In this document: piece by piece, positions 887 through 51,707 of the stretch | Position numbering within the stretch: the stretch's first letter is position 1 | How the letters are laid out: the number at the start of each line of letters is the position of its first letter | Assembly (NCBI GenBank): GCA_023665365.1 | Contig: JAMPEA010000004.1 | Location: forward strand, 32,823 to 96,822 | Direction: 5' to 3' | DNA: 64,000 bases | Source: Bacillota bacterium | GTDB lineage: Bacteria; Bacillota; Clostridia; Christensenellales; CAG-917 | Position numbers and translations under genes: made by a program | Notes under the pieces: model-generated | Seen by the model: the letters and a program-made list of their open reading frames with translations, nothing else | Told to the model about the DNA's origin: nothing | The model's database searches: none

Positions 887-900
887 CCGCCCTGAAATCA

Positions 901-928
901 CCCCGTCAAACGCGGAGGTCTGATTGGG
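901..928. repeat. Single copy of the CCCC...GGGG hairpin family (ccccgtcaaacgcggaggtctgattggg)
   Basis: Near-identical to the first unit of the 47622 array (ccccatcaaacgcggaggtttgacgggg). Lies in a convergent intergenic gap. Confidence 0.5.
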
Positions 929-952
929 ATAAACACAAAAAACTTTAAACTT

Positions 953-3394: not shown

Positions 3395-5908
3395 CTATTT
3401 GAGCGCGCCCCAATCGTCGGCGTAACCCGCCTTTGCGATGAGCGGCACTTTGAGCTCGATAGCGTTCTGCATCTCCTCGGCGAGCAGGGTCATAACCTCG
3501 TCAAGCTCGTCGCGGGCGGTATCTATGATGAGTTCGTCGTGGATTTGTAAAATCATCTTGGATTTTTTGTCTTTTAAGCGTTTTTCGACCCCGAGCATAG
3601 CGAGCTTGATAATATCCGCCGCCGAGCCTTGAAGCGGAGTGTTCATCGCCATACGCTCGGCAGATGAGCGCACGAGATAATTGGACGCATTGAGGTCGGA
3701 GAGATTGCGCCGTCTGCCGAGCAACGTAACCGCATAACCCTTTTCTCTTGCCTCGGCGACGCAACCGTCCATATACGCGCGCACGCGCGGGTGCGTGGAA
3801 AAGTAGTTTGCAATAAACTCCTTTGCCTTATACTGCGGGATAGACAGGTTTTCGGCGAGTCCGAAGCCGCTTATGCCGTAGATGATGCCGAAGTTGACGG
3901 CTTTTGCGTCGCGGCGCTGGTCGGGAGTGACCTCGCTAAGCGGAACGCCCAAAATCTGCGACGCGGTGATAGCGTGTATGTCGTCGTCCTTGTTGAATGC
4001 CTCGATAAGCTGTTCGTCGCCGCTCATATGCGCAAGCAAGCGAAGCTCGATCTGCGAGTAGTCTGCTGACACGAGCACGTTGCCCTCGCTCGGCAGAAAC
4101 GCGCTTTTAATATCCTTGGCTTCCTCGCTTCTTGTGGGAATGTTTTGGAGATTGGGATTTGTCGAGGACAGCCTGCCCGTCATAGTGATACACTGGTTGA
4201 ACTCCGTGTGGATACGCCCCCTGTTGATAAGCGGTTGAAGCCCCACGACGTAGGTTGACTGCAATTTTGTATAGTGGCGATATTCGAGTATATCCTTGAC
4301 GATGGGATTTGCCCAAGCGAGATTTGCAAGCACGTCCTCGCCGACGGAGTAGCCTGTCTTTGTCTTTTTGCCGTGCGGCAAGCCGAGCTTTTCAAACAGA
4401 ACCTCGCCGAGCTGTTTAGGAGACGCTATGTTGAAAGTACAGCCCGCCTTTTCGTAAATGCGGCGCGAAAGCTCCTCTATGATGCCGCCGTACTTGGCTT
4501 CGAGCTGTTTGAGCTTGTCGATAGACACGCGCACGCCGCGAAGCTCCATATCTCGCAAAACTACGCAAAGCGGCAGTTCAACGTCGTAAAACAGACGATT
4601 AAGTCCTTTTTCGGTCAGTTGCTCGGCAATTTTCACGCTTGCGAGATAAATTTCGCAAGCCCCGTTTTCCATTCCCTCTGCGCCGAGCACTTGCGCAAGG
4701 CTTTTTATCGACATACTCTCGCGCGCGAGGTGCGCGCCTATCATAATATCGAAAAACTCGCGGTTGTCAAACCCGTATTTTTTTGAAAGAGTTTTAAAGT
4801 CGTAGCAAATTAGGCGCATATCTTTTGCGCACTCGCGCACGCAGTCGAGCGCGTCGTCAAAGTAAGGTCCTTCGCTGAATAAATCCTCCGCGCAGTCAAT
4901 GACGTACTCCGTCTTGCCGTCAAGCGAAAAGCTGATTTCCCTATCAACGTAAACTGCGACGCTGTCGCCTTTGAGCGCGGCTTTTATTGCGTCAAGGCTG
5001 TTTAACTTGACGATATTTTTTTCTATCTTCGAGACTGTCGGCGCAGGGTCGGACTCGTCGAAAGTCATTCTGTTTATGAGGGAGGAGATTTCGAGTTCCA
5101 TAAGTTTTGCCTTGACCTCGGCGGAATATATCGGCGTAAACTTTATGTCGTCGAGCGTGCATTCGACGGGAACGTCCGTTTTGATGACGGCGAGTTTTCT
5201 GCTCAATATAGCCATATCCTTGCCGTTTACGACGTTCTGCCCCACCTTGCCGCTTATCTCCTCTGCGTGCGCGAGCACGCTGTCAAGCGAACCGTAGCTT
5301 GCAAGCAACGCCTTTGCGGTCTTTTCGCCGACCCCCGCGATGCCGGGGATATTGTCGGACGCGTCGCCCATAAGCGCCTTATAGTCGATAAACTGCGAGG
5401 GCGTAAAGCCGTCCTGCAAAAGCCGCGCCTCGTCGTAGACTTCTATATCGGTCACGCCGCGCTTTGTCCAAAATACGCGAGTGGTAGGACTGACAAGCTG
5501 AAAGCTGTCGCGGTCGCCCGTGACGATAATGCACTCGTCGCCGAACCTGTTTGCGAGCGTGCCGAGAATGTCGTCGCCCTCGTAGCCCTGCATGCTTACG
5601 ATTTTTATGCCCATAGCGGCGATAAGCTCTTTGAGAGGCTCGACCTGCTGGCGGAGTTCCTCGTCCATGGGCTTGCGCGTAGCCTTGTAGCCGTCGTACA
5701 TTTCGTGGCGGAAGGTAGGTCCTTTAAGGTCGAAAGCGGCGGCGATATGCGTGGGGTTTTGCTCCTTAATGAGGCGCAAAAGTATACTGACAAAGCCGAA
5801 CACCGCTCCCGTATACTGCCCCTTCGAGGATTTGAGATTGGGGAGCGCGTGATACGCTCTGTGCATAAGGCTGTTTGAGTCGAGCAATAGAATTTTGTTT
5901 TTCGCCAT
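3395..5908 (-). CDS. polA: DNA polymerase I
   Basis: 837 aa. Has an N-terminal 5' nuclease domain and the Pol A motifs 'DYSQIELRLLAH', 'RRDAKAVNFGIIYG' and 'LQIHDELI'. Confidence 0.95.
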   Translation of the reverse strand: MAKNKILLLDSNSLMHRAYHALPNLKSSKGQYTGAVFGFVSILLRLIKEQNPTHIAAAFDLKGPTFRHEMYDGYKATRKPMDEELRQQVEPLKELIAAMGIKIVSMQGYEGDDILGTLANRFGDECIIVTGDRDSFQLVSPTTRVFWTKRGVTDIEVYDEARLLQDGFTPSQFIDYKALMGDASDNIPGIAGVGEKTAKALLASYGSLDSVLAHAEEISGKVGQNVVNGKDMAILSRKLAVIKTDVPVECTLDDIKFTPIYSAEVKAKLMELEISSLINRMTFDESDPAPTVSKIEKNIVKLNSLDAIKAALKGDSVAVYVDREISFSLDGKTEYVIDCAEDLFSEGPYFDDALDCVRECAKDMRLICYDFKTLSKKYGFDNREFFDIMIGAHLARESMSIKSLAQVLGAEGMENGACEIYLASVKIAEQLTEKGLNRLFYDVELPLCVVLRDMELRGVRVSIDKLKQLEAKYGGIIEELSRRIYEKAGCTFNIASPKQLGEVLFEKLGLPHGKKTKTGYSVGEDVLANLAWANPIVKDILEYRHYTKLQSTYVVGLQPLINRGRIHTEFNQCITMTGRLSSTNPNLQNIPTRSEEAKDIKSAFLPSEGNVLVSADYSQIELRLLAHMSGDEQLIEAFNKDDDIHAITASQILGVPLSEVTPDQRRDAKAVNFGIIYGISGFGLAENLSIPQYKAKEFIANYFSTHPRVRAYMDGCVAEAREKGYAVTLLGRRRNLSDLNASNYLVRSSAERMAMNTPLQGSAADIIKLAMLGVEKRLKDKKSKMILQIHDELIIDTARDELDEVMTLLAEEMQNAIELKVPLIAKAGYADDWGALK

Positions 5909-5952: not shown

Positions 5953-5981
5953 ATTATAACATTAAACGGCGGTATTTACAA
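5953..5981 (-). promoter_or_regulatory. Putative sigma-A promoter of polA
   Basis: The minus strand reads TTGTAA-17 nt-TATAAT, with TGt just before the -10. It lies about 45 nt upstream of the polA ATG. Confidence 0.5.
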
Positions 5982-6010
5982 GTATAATCCGCAACGGGTG
6001 TGCGTCGAGT

Positions 6011-6279
6011 ACTCTAAATAAAATAGCCCCCTCTTTCCCTGCGGGCTTTTCTCCCACCACTCAAACTTAGACGGGTGCAGTAGCTCCCTCTTTGTCTTTT
6101 TAAGTTTTCGTCGTTCGCGGGGGGCGACAATCGGCACTCGTGAACTGATTGCCGTCGCCTATTTATTCCACTCGTTCGCAAGCGTAAAAACTACACTCGC
6201 TTGCTCTCTTGTACTTTTCGTCGCACTTCGGCACTCACTTTCTCCGCGCCCTGCGCGTCGTGTTCTAAACTTCGTAACA
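6011..6279 (-). ncRNA. Candidate structured non-coding RNA, copy 1 (unassigned family)
   Basis: Shares conserved blocks with 22606-22937. The hairpin GCAAGCG...CGCTTGC here is GCGGGCA...TGCCCGC in copy 2, so three pairs are compensated. The CGCGC-AGG-GCGCG hairpin is invariant. The minus-sense 3' end is AGCCC...GGGCT followed by ATTTTATTT. Confidence 0.45.
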
Positions 6280-6541
6280 GCCGTTCGTCGTGTAACACCC
6301 TATCAAGCAGACGTTAAAAACACCCCCTTAAAGATTAAGGGGGGGGGGTTGGGGGGATATGAGGAGTTTTCAGGTAAGGGGGTTCATAAGGGGGTATAGG
6401 GCGGACTCGGAAAACAGCCCTTACCCCCTTAGTAACGTGGTTACACCACACCCGACACTGTGTGTCACCCTCTATCGATGGGAGGGCTGACGTTCTGGAT
6501 TGCTTCGCCAATAAATTGGCTCGCAATGACGACTGTAAGAT

Positions 6542-16713: not shown

Positions 16714-16838
16714 AAAACTTGATTATTTGCGATGATTTTGCGTTTTCTCGCAAGGTTTTGGTCGCACCCAGTGTACAATCCGTACACGGTGCGCCAAGTT
16801 CTTGCGAAAAACACAAAAGGGCGCAAATAGCAAGTTTT
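16714..16838 (-). repeat. ~125-nt extended imperfect hairpin element, copy 1 (immediately after the tpiA stop)
   Basis: About 94% identical to 17752-17876. The whole unit folds back on itself (AAAACTTG.TTATTTGCG... pairs with ...GCGCAAATAGCAAGTTTT). The tpiA stop codon overlaps its end. Confidence 0.7.
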
Positions 16839-17589
16839 AATAGTTTATTACGTTAGAGAAATCAACAGCTTTTAAAGAAGCTCCGCCAATAAGTCCGCCG
16901 TCAATCTCGGGCATAGCCATAAGCTCTTTGACGTTCTTCGGGTTCATGCTTCCGCCGTATTGGATACGCACTCTGTTTTCGGCGCACTTGGGGCAATAAA
17001 GCTCCGCCATGGTGTTTCTGATGATTGCGATGGTCTCGTTTGCGACCTCCGCCGTAGCGGTCTTGCCTGTGCCGATAGCCCAAACGGGTTCGTATGCGAT
17101 GACGATATTTTCAAGCTCTTCTTTTTCGATACCCTCGAACGCGCCTTTTGTTTGACGCACGAGCACTTCCTCGACCTTGCCGCTTTCGCGCTCTTCGAGA
17201 GTTTCGCCTACGCAGACGATGGGTTTAAGCCCTGCCGCCAAAGCGGCTCTTGTCCTCGCGTTGACGGTCGCGTCCGTCTCGCCGAAATACTGACGGCGTT
17301 CGCTGTGTCCGATGATGACGTACTCTACGCCGAGCTCGGCGAGCATCTTTGCGGAAATCTCGCCCGTGAACGCGCCTTTTTCCGCCCAGTGCACGTTTTC
17401 TGCGCCGACTTTGATGTTAGTGCCCTTCGTCATCTCGACAGCCGTAGCGAGGTCGGTGTAAGGCGTGCAGATAACCACGTCGCACTCCGCGTCCTTGACG
17501 AGAGGGATAAGCTCCGAAATCAAGTTTTTGGTTTCTGCGATGGTGTTATTCATCTTCCAGTTTCCTGCGATAATTGCTTTTCTTGACAT
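16837..17589 (-). CDS. tpiA: Triosephosphate isomerase
   Basis: 250 aa. 'AGNWKMN', 'IGHSERR' and '[14 protein letters not shown]' motifs are present. Confidence 0.95.
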
Positions 17590-17751: not shown

Positions 17752-17876
17752 AAAACTTGATTATTTGCGATGATTTTGCGTTTTCTCGCAAGGTTTTGGT
17801 CACACCCAACGTACAAAACGTACGTGGTGTGCCAAGTTCTTGCGAAAAACACAAAAGGGCGCAAATAGCAAGTTTT
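17752..17876 (-). repeat. ~125-nt extended imperfect hairpin element, copy 2 (immediately after the pgk stop)
   Basis: Same element as 16714-16838. It differs at 8 positions: 6 form three fully compensated base pairs and 2 are in the apical loop. Confidence 0.7.
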
Positions 17877-17878
17877 AT

Positions 17879-31378: not shown

Positions 31379-32611
31379 TTAATTTTCTTCGAGGTGCGCC
31401 TTGCAAGCGTTTTCTGCAAGCTCGACAAGCGCATAAAGTTCCTGCTCGCTATCCGCTTTGACAATCGCGCCGTGTTGCGCCATAAGACAGACCTTGCAAT
31501 CGCCCGCAAGTTCGGCGGCTTTTTCGTAGCCCTTTTTTGAAAGTATCATCTTCGACGGCAGGCACTTGATTTCATCGCCTAACTTTTCCTTGTATTCGTC
31601 GCCGACGACCGTCATAGGTTTGCCTATCGCGCAAACCGCGGTTATATATCGCGGGCACGCAAATCCTACGACTTTGCCATTCAACGTAATCTTTTTCGCA
31701 ACAGCTTCGCTGTTTTGACTCTGCTGTGCGTCGCTTTCTATATTTTCGTTGGTGACTTCGTCACTTTGACTCTGCTGTCCATCACTATCATTCTTTTCGG
31801 TGACTTCGGCAACTTCGTTGCTTTGACTTTGCTGTTCGTCTCTGTCTTGCTTTTCAGCGACTTCGGCAACTTCGTTGCTTTGGTTCTGTTTTTCGTCGCT
31901 TTCTATATTTTCGGCAACCTCATTGCTTTGGCTTTGATTTGCGTTGCCATCGTTATTTTTGTCGGCTTCTGCGGGTTGAGTGTTTTTGTCGACCTCGACT
32001 TTTTCCTTTGAGGTGAGCTTGTACACGACCTGCTCGATAAACGCGTTTATCGGGTTTATATGCGCTGTGCCGCCCTTGTTTTCGGCAAGGATTTCCGCCG
32101 AGCAAGCCTTATCCAAAACGTCCGTCGCTTTGAGGAGCTCCTTCAAACTGCGCGCCTTGACGACCGCGCCCGCATCGGGCATAAAACAGGCGTTGCGATA
32201 GCCCGCAAGCGACGTAACGATTTCCGCCGCCACGTTTTTGGACGAGCACTTGACCGTCACGCCGAGCAGTTTTGCCACGTTATCCATGACCGCTTGCAGA
32301 GGCTTGCGCTTGCTCGAATATTCGAGAATAGCGTCGCTGTCCACGATAGCCGCGACCTCGGACATTTTGTCCTGACGGATAGCGCAAAAAAGTATAACCG
32401 CCGCCGCGCGGAAGTTGCCCTCGAACGACTCGATATTCTTGTCGTTGACAAATACCACGTCCTTTTCGCCGATATTGTTCAAGTCGGCTTTTTGGGCGGT
32501 GATTGCAATGCCGTCGCCGTCGCGCACCGCGATATATCCGCTTTCGATGAATTTTTTTTCTGAAAAGAGTTTTGCGCACTCGCTGATACTGCCTATGAGT
32601 TTGCTGTCCAT
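31379..32611 (-). CDS. Class II aldolase/adducin-like domain protein interrupted by an acidic Q/S/E-rich repeat linker
   Basis: 410 aa. The N-terminal ~200 aa and C-terminal ~100 aa resemble aldolase-II halves ('MAQHGAIVKADSEQELYALVELAENACKA'). The middle ~90 aa is repetitive ('QSNEVAEVAEKQD...'). Confidence 0.55.
   Translation of the reverse strand: MDSKLIGSISECAKLFSEKKFIESGYIAVRDGDGIAITAQKADLNNIGEKDVVFVNDKNIESFEGNFRAAAVILFCAIRQDKMSEVAAIVDSDAILEYSSKRKPLQAVMDNVAKLLGVTVKCSSKNVAAEIVTSLAGYRNACFMPDAGAVVKARSLKELLKATDVLDKACSAEILAENKGGTAHINPINAFIEQVVYKLTSKEKVEVDKNTQPAEADKNNDGNANQSQSNEVAENIESDEKQNQSNEVAEVAEKQDRDEQQSQSNEVAEVTEKNDSDGQQSQSDEVTNENIESDAQQSQNSEAVAKKITLNGKVVGFACPRYITAVCAIGKPMTVVGDEYKEKLGDEIKCLPSKMILSKKGYEKAAELAGDCKVCLMAQHGAIVKADSEQELYALVELAENACKAHLEEN
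31700..31975 (-). repeat. In-frame imperfect tandem repeat (~50-60 nt units, 4-5 copies)
   Basis: Reiterated gacttcggcaacttcgttgctttg... blocks encode (Q/N)QSNEVAEV(A/T)EK-like units. Confidence 0.7.
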
Positions 32612-47612: not shown

Positions 47613-47621
47613 ATTTTTTCA

Positions 47622-47815
47622 CCCCATCAAACGCGGAGGTTTGACGGGGACCCCGATTTATTCACCCCACAAAACAGGGACGTTTTGCGGGGACCCCGAT
47701 ATTATACCCCATAAAATAGGGACATTTTATGGGGACCCCGATTTATACCCCATAAATTGGCAATTTATGGGGACCCCGATTTTTCCCTACAATCGCGGAG
47801 GTTTACCCCTCCGTA
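47622..47815 (-). repeat. Tandem array of 4-5 CCCC...GGGG hairpin units, each followed by ACCCCGAT
   Basis: Units start at about 47622, 47664, 47707 and 47748, with a degenerate one at about 47785. The stems covary (CCCCACAAAAC/GTTTTGCGGGG versus CCCCATAAAAT/ATTTTATGGGG). The A.C mismatches on the plus strand become G.U in minus-sense RNA. Confidence 0.75.
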
Positions 47816-51522: not shown

Positions 51523-51556
51523 AAGCAATCCCACAGTCGTGGGATTGCTTTTTTTC
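51523..51556 (+). terminator. Strong intrinsic terminator of the small peptide gene
   Basis: AAGCAATCCCAC-agtc-GTGGGATTGCTT followed by T7. Confidence 0.75.
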
Positions 51557-51557
51557 A

Positions 51558-51648
51558 CCCCGCAAAACAGGGACGTTTTGCGGGGACCCCGTATTTACCC
51601 CACAAAACAGGGACGTTTTGCGGGGACCCCGTAGGGGAGGGGTTTTTG
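51558..51648. repeat. Two tandem CCCCRCAAAACAGGGACGTTTTGCGGGG-ACCCCGTA hairpin units plus a G-rich tail
   Basis: Units at 51558-51593 and 51598-51633, same family as 47622-47815. Lies in a convergent gap. Confidence 0.7.
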
Positions 51649-51707
51649 GATTGTCGTGTCACTTCTATCCTTTGGGGTGACGATTTTAAAAAAGTTTTTG
51701 AACAGCT

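What the first reader, a model, noticed from the sequence alone, without database searches (positions are those of the whole stretch)
6011..6279. Conserved ~270-330 nt intergenic element with compensatory base changes: candidate unclassified structured RNA (copy 1)
The polA-upstream gap and the dusB-trmL gap (22606-22937) share long conserved blocks.

Conserved blocks in minus sense:
- GTTACGAAGTTTWGAACRCGACGCGCAGGGCGCGGAGRAAG.GAGTGCC
- AAGTACAAG.GAGC...GCGAACGAGTGG.ATAA
- CGCGARCGACGARAA.TTAA..AGACAAAGAG.GAGCTAC
- GAGTGG.GGGAG..AAAGCCCGCAGGGAA

Evidence for RNA-level structure:
- Between the blocks, the two copies carry different hairpins of different lengths.
- One stem is GCAAGCG/CGCTTGC here (6178-6204) and GCGGGCA/TGCCCGC in copy 2 (22790-22816). 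All three changed pairs are compensated.
- The small CGCGC-AGG-GCGCG hairpin is invariant.
- A GUGC-CGAA-GUGC stem works only with G.U pairs in minus-sense RNA, which is the direction of all flanking genes.
- The minus-sense 3' end (AGCCC...GGGCT + ATTTTATTT) looks like a terminator and stops about 30 nt before the polA -35.

No ORF is shared between the copies. I could not recognise RNase P, tmRNA, SRP, 6S, T-box or riboswitch signature sequences.
Basis: seen in the sequence. Interest (0 to 1): 0.8.

Follow-up and report, generated by a model that had tools for sequence, protein, structure and literature searches.

The report
Structured mobile intergenic repeat, gut Clostridia
The two look-alike stretches are copies of an uncatalogued, strongly folded 250-340-base repeat. 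It is scattered at an estimated tens of copies per genome in uncultured gut Clostridia, and it behaves like an inserted mobile element rather than a dedicated RNA gene.

Summary
Window 5989-6278 and 22592-22936 (both minus sense) are two copies of one element, and their stems change by compensated pairs.

Forty aligned copies support a 48-pair, 8-helix structure:
- 91.6% of cells are paired, against 30-50% when partners are slid.
- 21 pairs change on both sides.
- No shuffle out of 500 reaches the observed values.
- G·U cells outnumber A·C cells 181 to 56, which points to the purine-rich strand.

No Rfam 15 family matches.

The family does not behave like an RNA gene or a leader:
- It is multicopy and modular, with three interchangeable 3' domains, tandem tail units and nested hairpin inserts.
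- It lies in either orientation relative to its neighbours.
- It is absent from the same gene pairs in related genomes. The dusB-trmL spacer is 10-95 nt in five species, and the spacer upstream of polA is 176-205 nt in two.
- Copy 1 sits between a predicted terminator and the polA promoter.
- No promoter or terminator of its own was found.

My best reading is a non-autonomous mobile repeat whose single-stranded fold is under selection. No partner enzyme was found, and clean ends were not defined. An RNA role, for example a guide scaffold, is not excluded.

The parts
5989..6278 (-). Copy 1 of the element, from GTTACGAAG at the 5' end to the tail after TTTAGAGT. The 3' domain is of type C1.
   Evidence: nhmmer with the family profile: E = 5e-60, covering 6317-5979. 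The identical copy is present in NCBI MAG GCA_023666605.1.
6242..6260 (-). Hairpin hp1: CGA-CGCGC-AGG-GCGCG-GAG. It is a 5-bp stem flanked by tandem G·A/A·G and a closing C-G.
   Evidence: Sequence. Helix 1: 4 of 6 pairs show changes on both sides across the family.
6168..6214 (-). Long helix P2: GTACAAGAGAGC, then hairpin hp2 (stems at 6198-6204 and 6178-6184), then GCGAACGAGTGG.
   Evidence: helix 2: 14 pairs, 7 with double changes. The variant copies in L156, L222 and L214 replace the purine-purine internal loops with Watson-Crick pairs.
6122..6159 (-). Middle hairpin: GGCGACGGCA...UGCCGAUUGUCGCC. Its sequence varies between copies.
   Evidence: MFE fold. The family equivalent is GCAUA...UAUGC (helix 3), which shows no double changes.
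6050..6128 (-). 3' domain. The C-run (GTCGCCCCCCGCG) pairs with G-run 1 (GAGTGGTGGGAGA) and encloses an internal hairpin. The window lineage has an enlarged internal hairpin, AGACAAAGAG.GAGCTAC.
   Evidence: Helices 5-7: helix 5 has 10 pairs, 6 with double changes, for example UCUCCC/GGGAGA against UCUUCC/GGAAGA. The enlarged internal hairpin (AGACAAAGAG.GAGCTAC) is shared with copy 2; L254 has an enlarged hairpin of different sequence at the same position.
6037..6046 (-). Small hairpin hp3: GCCC-GCA-GGG. Elsewhere it is CCC-GAAA-GGG, CCC-GAA-GGG or CCGG-N5/6-CCGG.
   Evidence: helix 8.
6011..6036 (-). G-run 2 (AAAGAGGGGGC) followed by an A/U-rich tract, TATTTTATTTAGAGT.
   Evidence: Conserved in all three 3' domain types. 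No terminator is called here.
5989..6010 (-). Tail: ACTCGACGCACACCCGTTGCGG. It corresponds to the family's tail hairpin plus the CTTGTAGAGG end, and is degenerate in this copy.
22592..22936 (-). Copy 2 of the element. It has the same architecture plus two extra hairpin inserts, at about 22836-22885 and about 22735-22775. It fills the dusB-trmL spacer.
   Evidence: nhmmer E = 4e-45. The spacer is 10-95 nt and has no element in five related species.
6323..6343 (-). Context: predicted intrinsic terminator of the upstream Big_2 gene, lying 5' of copy 1.
   Evidence: The Big_2 domains are.
5953..5981 (-). Context: predicted polA promoter (TTGTAA, 17 nt, TG-n-TATAAT), lying 3' of copy 1.
   Evidence: A similar promoter sequence sits upstream of polA in L254.

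Best explanation
Copies 1 and 2 are two insertions of a non-autonomous, dispersed repeat element that has not been catalogued. The element is 250-340 nt long and occurs in a clade of uncultured Clostridia, mostly from human gut metagenomes.

Anatomy:
- A fixed 5' half: hairpin hp1, the long helix P2 with hairpin hp2, and a middle hairpin.
- One of three interchangeable 3' domains. Each is closed by a C-run/G-run helix, then a small hairpin, a second G-run and an A/U-rich tract.
- Optional end modules: 33-nt units at the 5' end, and 75-nt tail units at the 3' end that can be repeated in tandem.

The elaborate, covarying fold belongs to the purine-rich strand as a single strand.

Inference: this fold is what the element needs to propagate. 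It would be recognised as hairpinned single-stranded DNA, or as an RNA intermediate, by an enzyme supplied in trans. That enzyme could be an HUH/Y1-type transposase, as for IS200/IS605-derived PATEs and REP/BIME. The fold is not, on this reading, the working part of a host RNA gene.

Once inserted, the copy is passive. Copy 2 is probably co-transcribed within dusB-trmL. Copy 1 sits in a gap between a terminator and a promoter.

Shown: the family, its structure, the folding strand, modularity, mixed orientation, and presence/absence between genomes.
Inferred: the mode of mobilisation and the passivity of inserted copies.
For: 1. Family size. In about 1.07 Mb of fetched DNA there is about one extra copy per 80 kb. 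The window has 2 copies in 64 kb.

2. Structure. 91.6% of cells are paired against 30-50% in slid controls. 21 pairs and 180 cells change on both sides. 0 of 500 shuffles reach the observed values. G·U 181 against A·C 56.

3. Modularity and mosaicism.
- Three 3' domain types: 57 C2, 28 C1, 8 C3.
- Tandem tail units in L146, L157, L159 and L160.
- Solo 33-nt units (32 hits) and solo tails (11 hits).
- Heterogeneous ends.
- Nested hairpin inserts at different sites.

4. Insertion behaviour.
- The dusB-trmL spacer is 10, 30, 25, 37 and 95 nt, with no element, in species whose DusB is 87, 89, 85, 81 and 78% identical. In the window it is about 370 nt.
- The Big_2-polA spacer is 205 and 176 nt, consisting of a terminator plus a promoter, in species with 87% and 83% PolA identity. 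In the window it is 677 nt.
- One pair of alleles, about 98% identical, exists with and without a 584-nt block that contains the element (L184 against L117).

5. Orientation. Among sites with an ORF called on both sides, 30 lie in the sense of a co-directional gene pair and 18 antisense; 26 lie between convergent genes and 8 between divergent genes. Copies antisense to called genes are confirmed in the pgk-tpi spacer of L234, L235 and L240-L245.

6. No expression signals. Copy 1 has no predicted promoter or terminator of its own and lies between a terminator and the polA promoter. Nothing is predicted for copy 2 either.

7. The two window copies share a lineage-specific enlarged internal hairpin, AGACAAAGAG.GAGCTAC. 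This indicates spread within this lineage.
Against: - No transposase, reverse transcriptase or recombinase recurs next to copies in about 1 Mb of flanking DNA, and none was seen in the ten window ORFs scanned (nine small or unannotated ones plus the 1,090-aa Big_2 gene).
- There are no terminal inverted repeats and no demonstrable target-site duplication.
- The single high-identity filled/empty pair is a composite block with a duplicated terminator, not a clean insertion.
- Non-orthologous copies are at most 96.7% identical, so no recent burst is visible.
- Covariation across subfamilies, tandem G·A motifs and GNRA-type loops are exactly what a functional RNA would show.
- A copy also lies upstream of polA in a species with 80% PolA identity (L254). 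That could mean long retention at this site.
- The orientation counts rest on heuristic ORF calls.
Confidence: 0.55

Rival explanations
1. The element is a multicopy trans-acting structured RNA that travels with a mobile element. Examples would be the guide or scaffold RNA of an RNA-guided transposon nuclease (like the HEARO/omega RNA of IscB/IsrB, or the IS605-orfB RNAs of TnpB), or the RNA of a retro-mobile element. On this reading the copies seen here are ORF-less derivatives, and an autonomous copy carrying the protein gene lies elsewhere in the genome.
For: - The fold is ornate, spans 250-330 nt and covaries strongly.
- The fold is strand-specific.
- The element is mobile and multicopy with no adjacent ORF, as many HEARO copies are (my own knowledge of Weinberg et al. 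2010 and Altae-Tran et al. 2021).
- The strongly conserved AAAGAGGGGG, followed after 6-9 nt by ATT-TAG, resembles a ribosome-binding site left beside a deleted ORF.
- The ends are direct rather than inverted.
Against: - There is no match to HEARO, IS605-orfB or any other Rfam family, even at E up to 10.
- No TnpB, IscB or TnpA-like ORF recurs near about 140 element sites.
- No long ORF starts after the G-run, apart from spurious ones.
- The heterogeneous ends and tandem tail units are not typical of IS200/IS605 ends.
Confidence: 0.17
2. The repeat has been domesticated and has a host function at the level of mRNA or DNA, as proposed for REP/BIME and BOX elements. As a stable folded block in untranslated regions it would buffer mRNA decay, dampen read-through between genes, or bind a nucleoid or RNA-binding protein.
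For: - Copies are frequent between convergent genes (26) and rare between divergent genes (8).
- The pgk-tpi copy is fixed in all sampled strains of one species.
- A copy lies upstream of polA in two species whose PolA is 80% identical.
- Structure is conserved rather than sequence.
Against: - Sense and antisense placements are both common, 30 against 18. One RNA-level role therefore cannot hold for all copies.
- The element is absent from the same spacers in the nearest relatives.
- No terminator is predicted in it.
- This reading is compatible with a selfish origin and does not explain the spread.
Confidence: 0.2
3. The element is a cis-regulatory leader (riboswitch, attenuator or protein-binding leader) controlling polA and trmL.
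For: Both window copies lie upstream of a gene and in its sense. The fold offers alternative pairings of two G-runs with one C-run.
Against: - Across the family the downstream ORF is on the same strand in only 49 of 101 cases, and the neighbouring genes are unrelated.
- Copy 1 lies upstream of the predicted polA promoter, not downstream of it.
- Orthologous polA and trmL genes in related species lack the element.
Confidence: 0.03

Closest known systems
BOX elements of Streptococcus pneumoniae (boxA, boxB repeated, boxC); comparison from my own knowledge
   Same: Both are intergenic, multicopy and modular, with a variable number of repeated modules. Both have no coding capacity and a strongly folded transcript. 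Both occur in either orientation, and no partner transposase is known.
   Different: BOX ends (boxA and boxC) form inverted repeats, and the element is built from 45-59-nt boxes. The present element has direct, not inverted, terminal similarity. It also has a 5-8-helix fold with swapped 3' domains, and it lives in a different phylum-level lineage. I did not test sequence similarity directly.
REP/BIME elements with RAYT (Y1 HUH) transposases; comparison from my own knowledge
   Same: Both combine hairpin units into mosaics and form tandem arrays. Both show strand-specific hairpins whose stems covary. Both are common after gene ends, and their enzyme is supplied in trans from one locus.
   Different: REP units are 20-40-nt single palindromes with a conserved GTAG. 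Here the unit is a 250-nt multi-helix fold. No RAYT was looked for or found. The window also carries a separate 40-nt hairpin repeat that is more REP-like (47614-47790).
PATEs (palindrome-associated transposable elements), the ORF-less derivatives of IS200/IS605; comparison from my own knowledge
   Same: Both lack inverted ends and an obvious target duplication. Both have subterminal hairpins, a strand-specific single-stranded structure, a size of 150-500 nt, and insertion polymorphism.
   Different: The hairpins at the left and right ends of IS200/IS605 resemble each other, and insertion is 3' of a fixed tetra- or pentanucleotide. Here hp1 and the tail hairpin are unlike each other, and no fixed flanking motif was established. 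The strand bias is also weak.
HEARO RNA (omega RNA of IscB/IsrB), Rfam RF02033; accession and size from my own knowledge
   Same: Both are about 300 nt, ornate, multicopy and mobile, and are often found without their ORF. HEARO was first noticed as an unexplained structured repeat.
   Different: No covariance-model match was found, and no associated nuclease ORF was found.
bcr1 repeat of the Bacillus cereus group and Correia elements of Neisseria; comparison from my own knowledge
   Same: Both are small, dispersed, transcribed, folded repeats in intergenic regions, with differences between strains.
   Different: Those are classical MITEs with inverted ends and short target duplications (TTTAT, TA). 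Neither feature is seen here.

Membership tests
Any Rfam 15 RNA family (including HEARO, IS605-orfB-I/II, twister, hammerhead, riboswitches, 6S, tmRNA, RNase P) | The covariance model scores at or above the family's gathering threshold. | tested here: not met
   0 hits in the whole window. 1 hit, a tRNA, in ten related loci. Permissive scans of copy 1 and of an L160 copy give only far-sub-threshold chance matches.
Classical MITE | Terminal inverted repeats. | tested here: not met
   The ends are similar in direct orientation: AACACTTATTCAAGG at the 5' end against CAACTCTTGTAGAGG at the 3' end. No inverted match was seen between the first and last 30 nt (read).
Classical MITE | Short target-site duplication flanking each copy. 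| tested here: inconclusive
   Only one high-identity filled/empty pair was found. A TA on both sides is possible, but the insert is composite.
Classical MITE | Small, non-coding, many copies per genome, and present or absent between related genomes. | tested here: met
IS200/IS605-derived PATE | Similar subterminal hairpins at both ends. | tested here: not met
   hp1 (GCCGC-AAG-GCGGC) and the tail hairpin (AGAGTT-N8-10-AACTCT) are unrelated in sequence.
IS200/IS605-derived PATE | A fixed tetra- or pentanucleotide target immediately 5' of the left end. | tested here: inconclusive
   The 5' boundaries are heterogeneous. TTCRRAG-like motifs punctuate the modules, but they appear to belong to the element.
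IS200/IS605-derived PATE | A cognate tnpA/tnpB copy with the same ends in the genome. | not testable with these tools
   None was found in about 1 Mb of flanks.
REP/BIME | A 20-40-nt palindromic unit with a conserved 5' tetranucleotide, plus a RAYT gene flanked by the units. | tested here: not met
   The unit is a multi-helix fold of about 250 nt. RAYT was not searched for.
Riboswitch or cis-regulatory leader | Constant position in the 5' UTR, in the sense of a functionally coherent set of downstream genes. | tested here: not met
   The downstream ORF is on the same strand in 49 of 101 cases and the neighbours are unrelated. Copy 1 lies upstream of the predicted promoter.
Independent small-RNA gene | Its own promoter and terminator delimiting the conserved region. 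| tested here: not met
   There is no promoter-like site 5' of either copy. There is no terminator-like site at either 3' end. Consensus scans are weak evidence.
Structured single-stranded nucleic acid (RNA or ssDNA) | Base pairs are kept through compensatory change, and wobble pairs favour one strand. | tested here: met

The most novel reading that the evidence does not exclude
The element is the RNA component of a mobile genetic system not yet described in gut Clostridia. It would be an ornate scaffold of about 300 nt, acting as a guide or as a template, whose protein partner is encoded at one or a few autonomous copies elsewhere. This would parallel HEARO, which was an unexplained structured repeat for a decade before it was recognised as the IscB guide RNA.
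Probability: 0.15. Interest if true: 0.8.

Novelty: new variant of a known kind. Interest (0 to 1): 0.5.

Why it matters
The family is abundant in widespread but uncultured human-gut Clostridia. It has one of the clearer covariation signals one can get from intergenic DNA, and it is in no RNA or repeat catalogue that I could search.

If it is only a selfish repeat, it still has practical uses:
- Masking it prevents false calls of novel RNAs or riboswitches in these genomes.
- It can serve as a marker of strain-level rearrangement.
- It explains fragmented assemblies and chimeric spacers in these genomes.

If its fold serves an RNA-guided or single-strand-DNA enzyme, finding the partner would define a new mobile system.

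Tried and rejected
1. Genome-collection scan with CGACGCGCAGGGCGCGGAG. Only L063 was a true homologue.

2. Viral contigs, phage records and plasmid records: no match. A phage or plasmid origin is not indicated.

3. Search for a partner gene.
- All-against-all clustering of 809 flanking ORFs found only ABC transporters, two-component systems and a spurious arginine-rich ORF antisense to the element.
- ORFs starting after the conserved G-run were spurious.
- The ten window ORFs scanned against Pfam (nine small or unannotated, plus the Big_2 gene) carry no transposase domain.

4. Using the antisense pseudo-ORF of copy 2 as a protein query, to survey the family in the protein database: no hits.

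5. Strain-level polymorphism of the pgk-tpi copy. All the strains fetched that reach the pgk-tpi spacer (L234, L235, L240-L245) carry it, so this was uninformative.

6. Terminator reading of the 3' end. It was not called by the scan. The proposed stem shares its C residues with hp3 and shows A·C mismatches in many members (read).

7. Full-text search for the conserved strings and for similar multicopy RNAs. The string search was irrelevant. A keyword search listed four papers on structured ncRNA discovery that I did not read.

8. Twister-like resemblance of ...GCCGG..CCGGAAAGAGGGGG. I rejected it, because no Rfam twister model scores even at a permissive E-value.

9. Protein-coding reading. 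I rejected it because copies differ by 1-2-nt indels in loops (core lengths of 52, 53 and 54 nt) and by whole hairpin inserts.

Full report
**Observation.**
- The window holds no third copy, by the repeat finder or by family profiles.
- The 47-nt core pattern occurs twice in the window and never in 100 shuffles.
- The stem at 6178-6204 and its counterpart at 22790-22816 differ at three pairs, all compensated.
- Conservation in copy 1 extends about 20 nt beyond the stated 3' end, to about 5989.
- Each strand folds somewhat better than shuffled sequence. The minus sense does so more clearly: z = -2.7 and -3.1, against -1.7 for the plus sense of copy 1.

**Known RNA families.**
- Rfam 15 gives nothing at gathering thresholds in the window.
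- It gives nothing meaningful at E up to 10 on copy 1.
- In ten related loci the only hit is a tRNA.
- A typical gut copy gives nothing meaningful.

**Homologues.**
- My first collection scan used a G+C-rich block and was swamped by chance hits. It yielded one divergent homologue, in a Clostridia MAG (L063).
- A second pattern leaves the hairpin free: GTACAAGNGAG-N20-34-GARCGAGTGNNATAA. It found nothing in viral contigs.
Those whose record names state a source are human-gut assemblies, often with several matches per assembly.
- Because the pattern fixed the flanks of hairpin hp2, the invariance of GTACAAG.GAG and GAACGAGTG in the collected set is an artefact of how the set was gathered.

**Anatomy**.
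- The 5' half starts at a YTTCRRAG motif (GTTACGAAG in the window lineage).
- It then contains hp1, a stretch ...GAGYGCCGA...GACG, the long helix P2 that carries hp2, and a variable middle hairpin ending in GCGAGTGCCG.
- The 3' half comes in three interchangeable versions: C2 in 57 copies, C1 in 28 plus the window copies, and C3 in 8.
- In each version a C-run pairs with a G-run around an internal hairpin. This is followed by a small hairpin (hp3), a second G-run (AAAGAGGGGG or GAAGGGG) and an A/U-rich tract ending in TTTAGAG.
- Many copies continue with a tail hairpin and CTTGTAGAGG(AAGAAC).
- The 75-nt unit made of hp3, G-run, A/U tract and tail can repeat in tandem (L146, L157, L159, L160).
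- At the 5' side, one to three 33-nt units (GCGTACTTATAAACGGAATGTGC + CTATTCRRAG) are common.
- Solo 33-nt units (32 hits) and solo tails (11 hits) also occur.
- Extra hairpins (TAGCGATTG...CAATCGC and others) are inserted at different places, including both inserts of window copy 2.
- In L254 an unrelated 40-nt hairpin repeat is nested inside the element.
- The ends are similar in direct orientation, not inverted.

**Structure.**
- On 40 copies of types C1 and C3, including both window copies, RNAalifold and block-wise folding gave a 48-pair, 8-helix model.
- 91.6% of cells form standard pairs, against 30-50% when the 3' partners are slid by 1-3 columns.
- 21 pairs and 180 cells change on both sides.
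- The covariation score is 0.30, against at most 0.10 for the slid versions.
- No shuffle out of 500 reaches the observed values.
- The hp2 stem and the C-run/G-run helix carry most of the double changes, for example UCUCCC/GGGAGA against UCUUCC/GGAAGA.
- A variant form of P2 in L156, L222 and L214 replaces purine-purine internal loops with Watson-Crick pairs.
- G·U cells outnumber A·C cells 181 to 56, so the purine-rich strand (window minus) is the one that folds.
- This does not distinguish RNA from single-stranded DNA. The hp3 loops (C-GAA-G, C-GCA-G, GAAA) are stable in both, from my own knowledge.

**Behaviour in genomes: orientation.**
- Orientation relative to flanking long ORFs is mixed. 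Among the 82 sites with an ORF called on both sides, 30 lie in the sense of a co-directional gene pair and 18 antisense. 26 lie between convergent genes and 8 between divergent genes.
- These ORF calls are heuristic. Antisense placement is nevertheless confirmed with database gene calls in the pgk-tpi spacer of one abundant species.

**Behaviour in genomes: presence and absence.**
- The spoVT-spoVB-mazG-dusB-trmL-pgk-tpi-gpmI block is syntenic in related species.
- The dusB-trmL spacer is 30, 10, 25, 37 and 95 nt, with no profile hit, in species whose DusB is 89, 87, 85, 81 and 78% identical. In the window it is about 370 nt.
- Upstream of polA, species with 87% and 83% PolA identity have only a terminator and a promoter in 205 and 176 nt. 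The window has 677 nt.
- A species with 80% PolA identity does carry a copy upstream of polA (L254). That copy lacks the enlarged internal hairpin (AGACAAAGAG.GAGCTAC) shared by the two window copies, so the window copies are each other's closest relatives in that part.
- Among the fetched loci, one allele pair of about 98% identity differs by a 584-nt block that contains the element. The block also carries another repeat and a duplicated terminator, so it is not a clean insertion.

**Behaviour in genomes: age and density.**
- Non-orthologous copies are 66-97% identical.
- Extra copies occur about once per 80 kb of flanking DNA. This suggests tens of copies per genome, and no very recent burst.

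**Local context.**
- Copy 1 lies between a predicted terminator (6343-6323) of the upstream Big_2 gene and the predicted polA promoter (5981-5953).
- No promoter-like site precedes either copy, and no terminator-like site ends either copy.

**Partner search.**
- No recurrent transposase-like ORF lies near about 140 element sites.
- No ORF follows the ribosome-binding-site-like G-run.
- Pfam scans of ten window ORFs (nine small or unannotated, plus the Big_2 gene) show no transposase domain.
- Phage and plasmid collections do not contain the element.
- Two full-text searches were made. The string search was irrelevant. The four papers from the keyword search were not read.

**Interpretation.**
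- The element's genomic behaviour is that of a dispersed insertion element: many copies, swapped and repeated modules, nested inserts, either orientation, absence from orthologous spacers, and no signals of its own. It is not the behaviour of a single-purpose RNA gene or leader.
- I therefore read it as a non-autonomous mobile repeat. Its single-stranded fold is selected because propagation depends on it. The closest analogies are PATEs, REP/BIME and BOX elements.
- This is an inference. No partner enzyme and no clean ends were found, and the covariation is equally what a functional RNA would show.
- An RNA role is not excluded, whether as the guide scaffold of an unseen mobile system (as HEARO turned out to be) or as a domesticated stabiliser of untranslated regions.
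- Transcriptome mapping and a whole-genome model search would decide between these readings.

Noticed in passing
window 16714-16849 and 17752-17887 (minus sense): A 136-nt repeat, 91% identical between its two copies. It has 16-17-nt inverted ends (AAACTTGCTATTTGCG ... CGCAAATAATCAAGTTT) and an internal palindrome. It sits directly after the stop codons of tpi and pgk. It looks like a classical MITE unrelated to the finding.
   Followed up: partly
window 898-929, 47614-47790, 51550-51650; also L254 at about 345-385: A hairpin repeat of about 40 nt (TCACCCC-ACAAAAC-AGGGAC-GTTTTGC-GGGGACCCCGAT) occurs in tandem arrays with a period of 38-43 nt. It is REP-like. A homologous unit is nested inside the element copy upstream of polA in L254.
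   Followed up: no
window 6320-6480 (minus sense): Just 5' of copy 1 there is a cluster of G5/C5 motifs in inverted arrangement: TAAGGGGGTAAGGG, ACCCCCTTATGAACCCCCTTACC, CCCCCCCCTTAATCTTTAAGGGGGTG. The last of these is called as a terminator. It may be another small repeat family.
   Followed up: no
window 31704-31973: Five tandem copies of a 57-nt unit lie inside the ORF at 31379-32611 (minus strand). This is a coding repeat.
   Followed up: no
L109 597-737 against L141 7246; L184 7111-7400: The gut relatives carry further small dispersed repeats. One is a 140-nt indel bounded by ACCAAATCGCGCC. Another is a GCGATATTGAGATGAAGAAC...GAGCCGC hairpin element. A third is the recurrent motif TTGCGGAAGGC-NAA-GCCTTATCC, which lies immediately 5' of several element copies and is also present at the empty site in L117.
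   Followed up: partly
L234 4961-5393 against L235 4961: Two strains with identical DusB differ by a 432-nt insertion between dusB and trmL. The insertion carries a 95-residue hydrophobic ORF and is unrelated to the element.
   Followed up: no
window 22942-23868 and 3395-5908 (protein names in the databases): The identical NCBI MAG proteins are labelled 'Bacteroides sp.' in one record and 'Bacillota bacterium' in another. The gene content (spoVT, a spoVB-like gene, and synteny with Clostridia MAGs) fits Bacillota/Clostridia.
   Followed up: no
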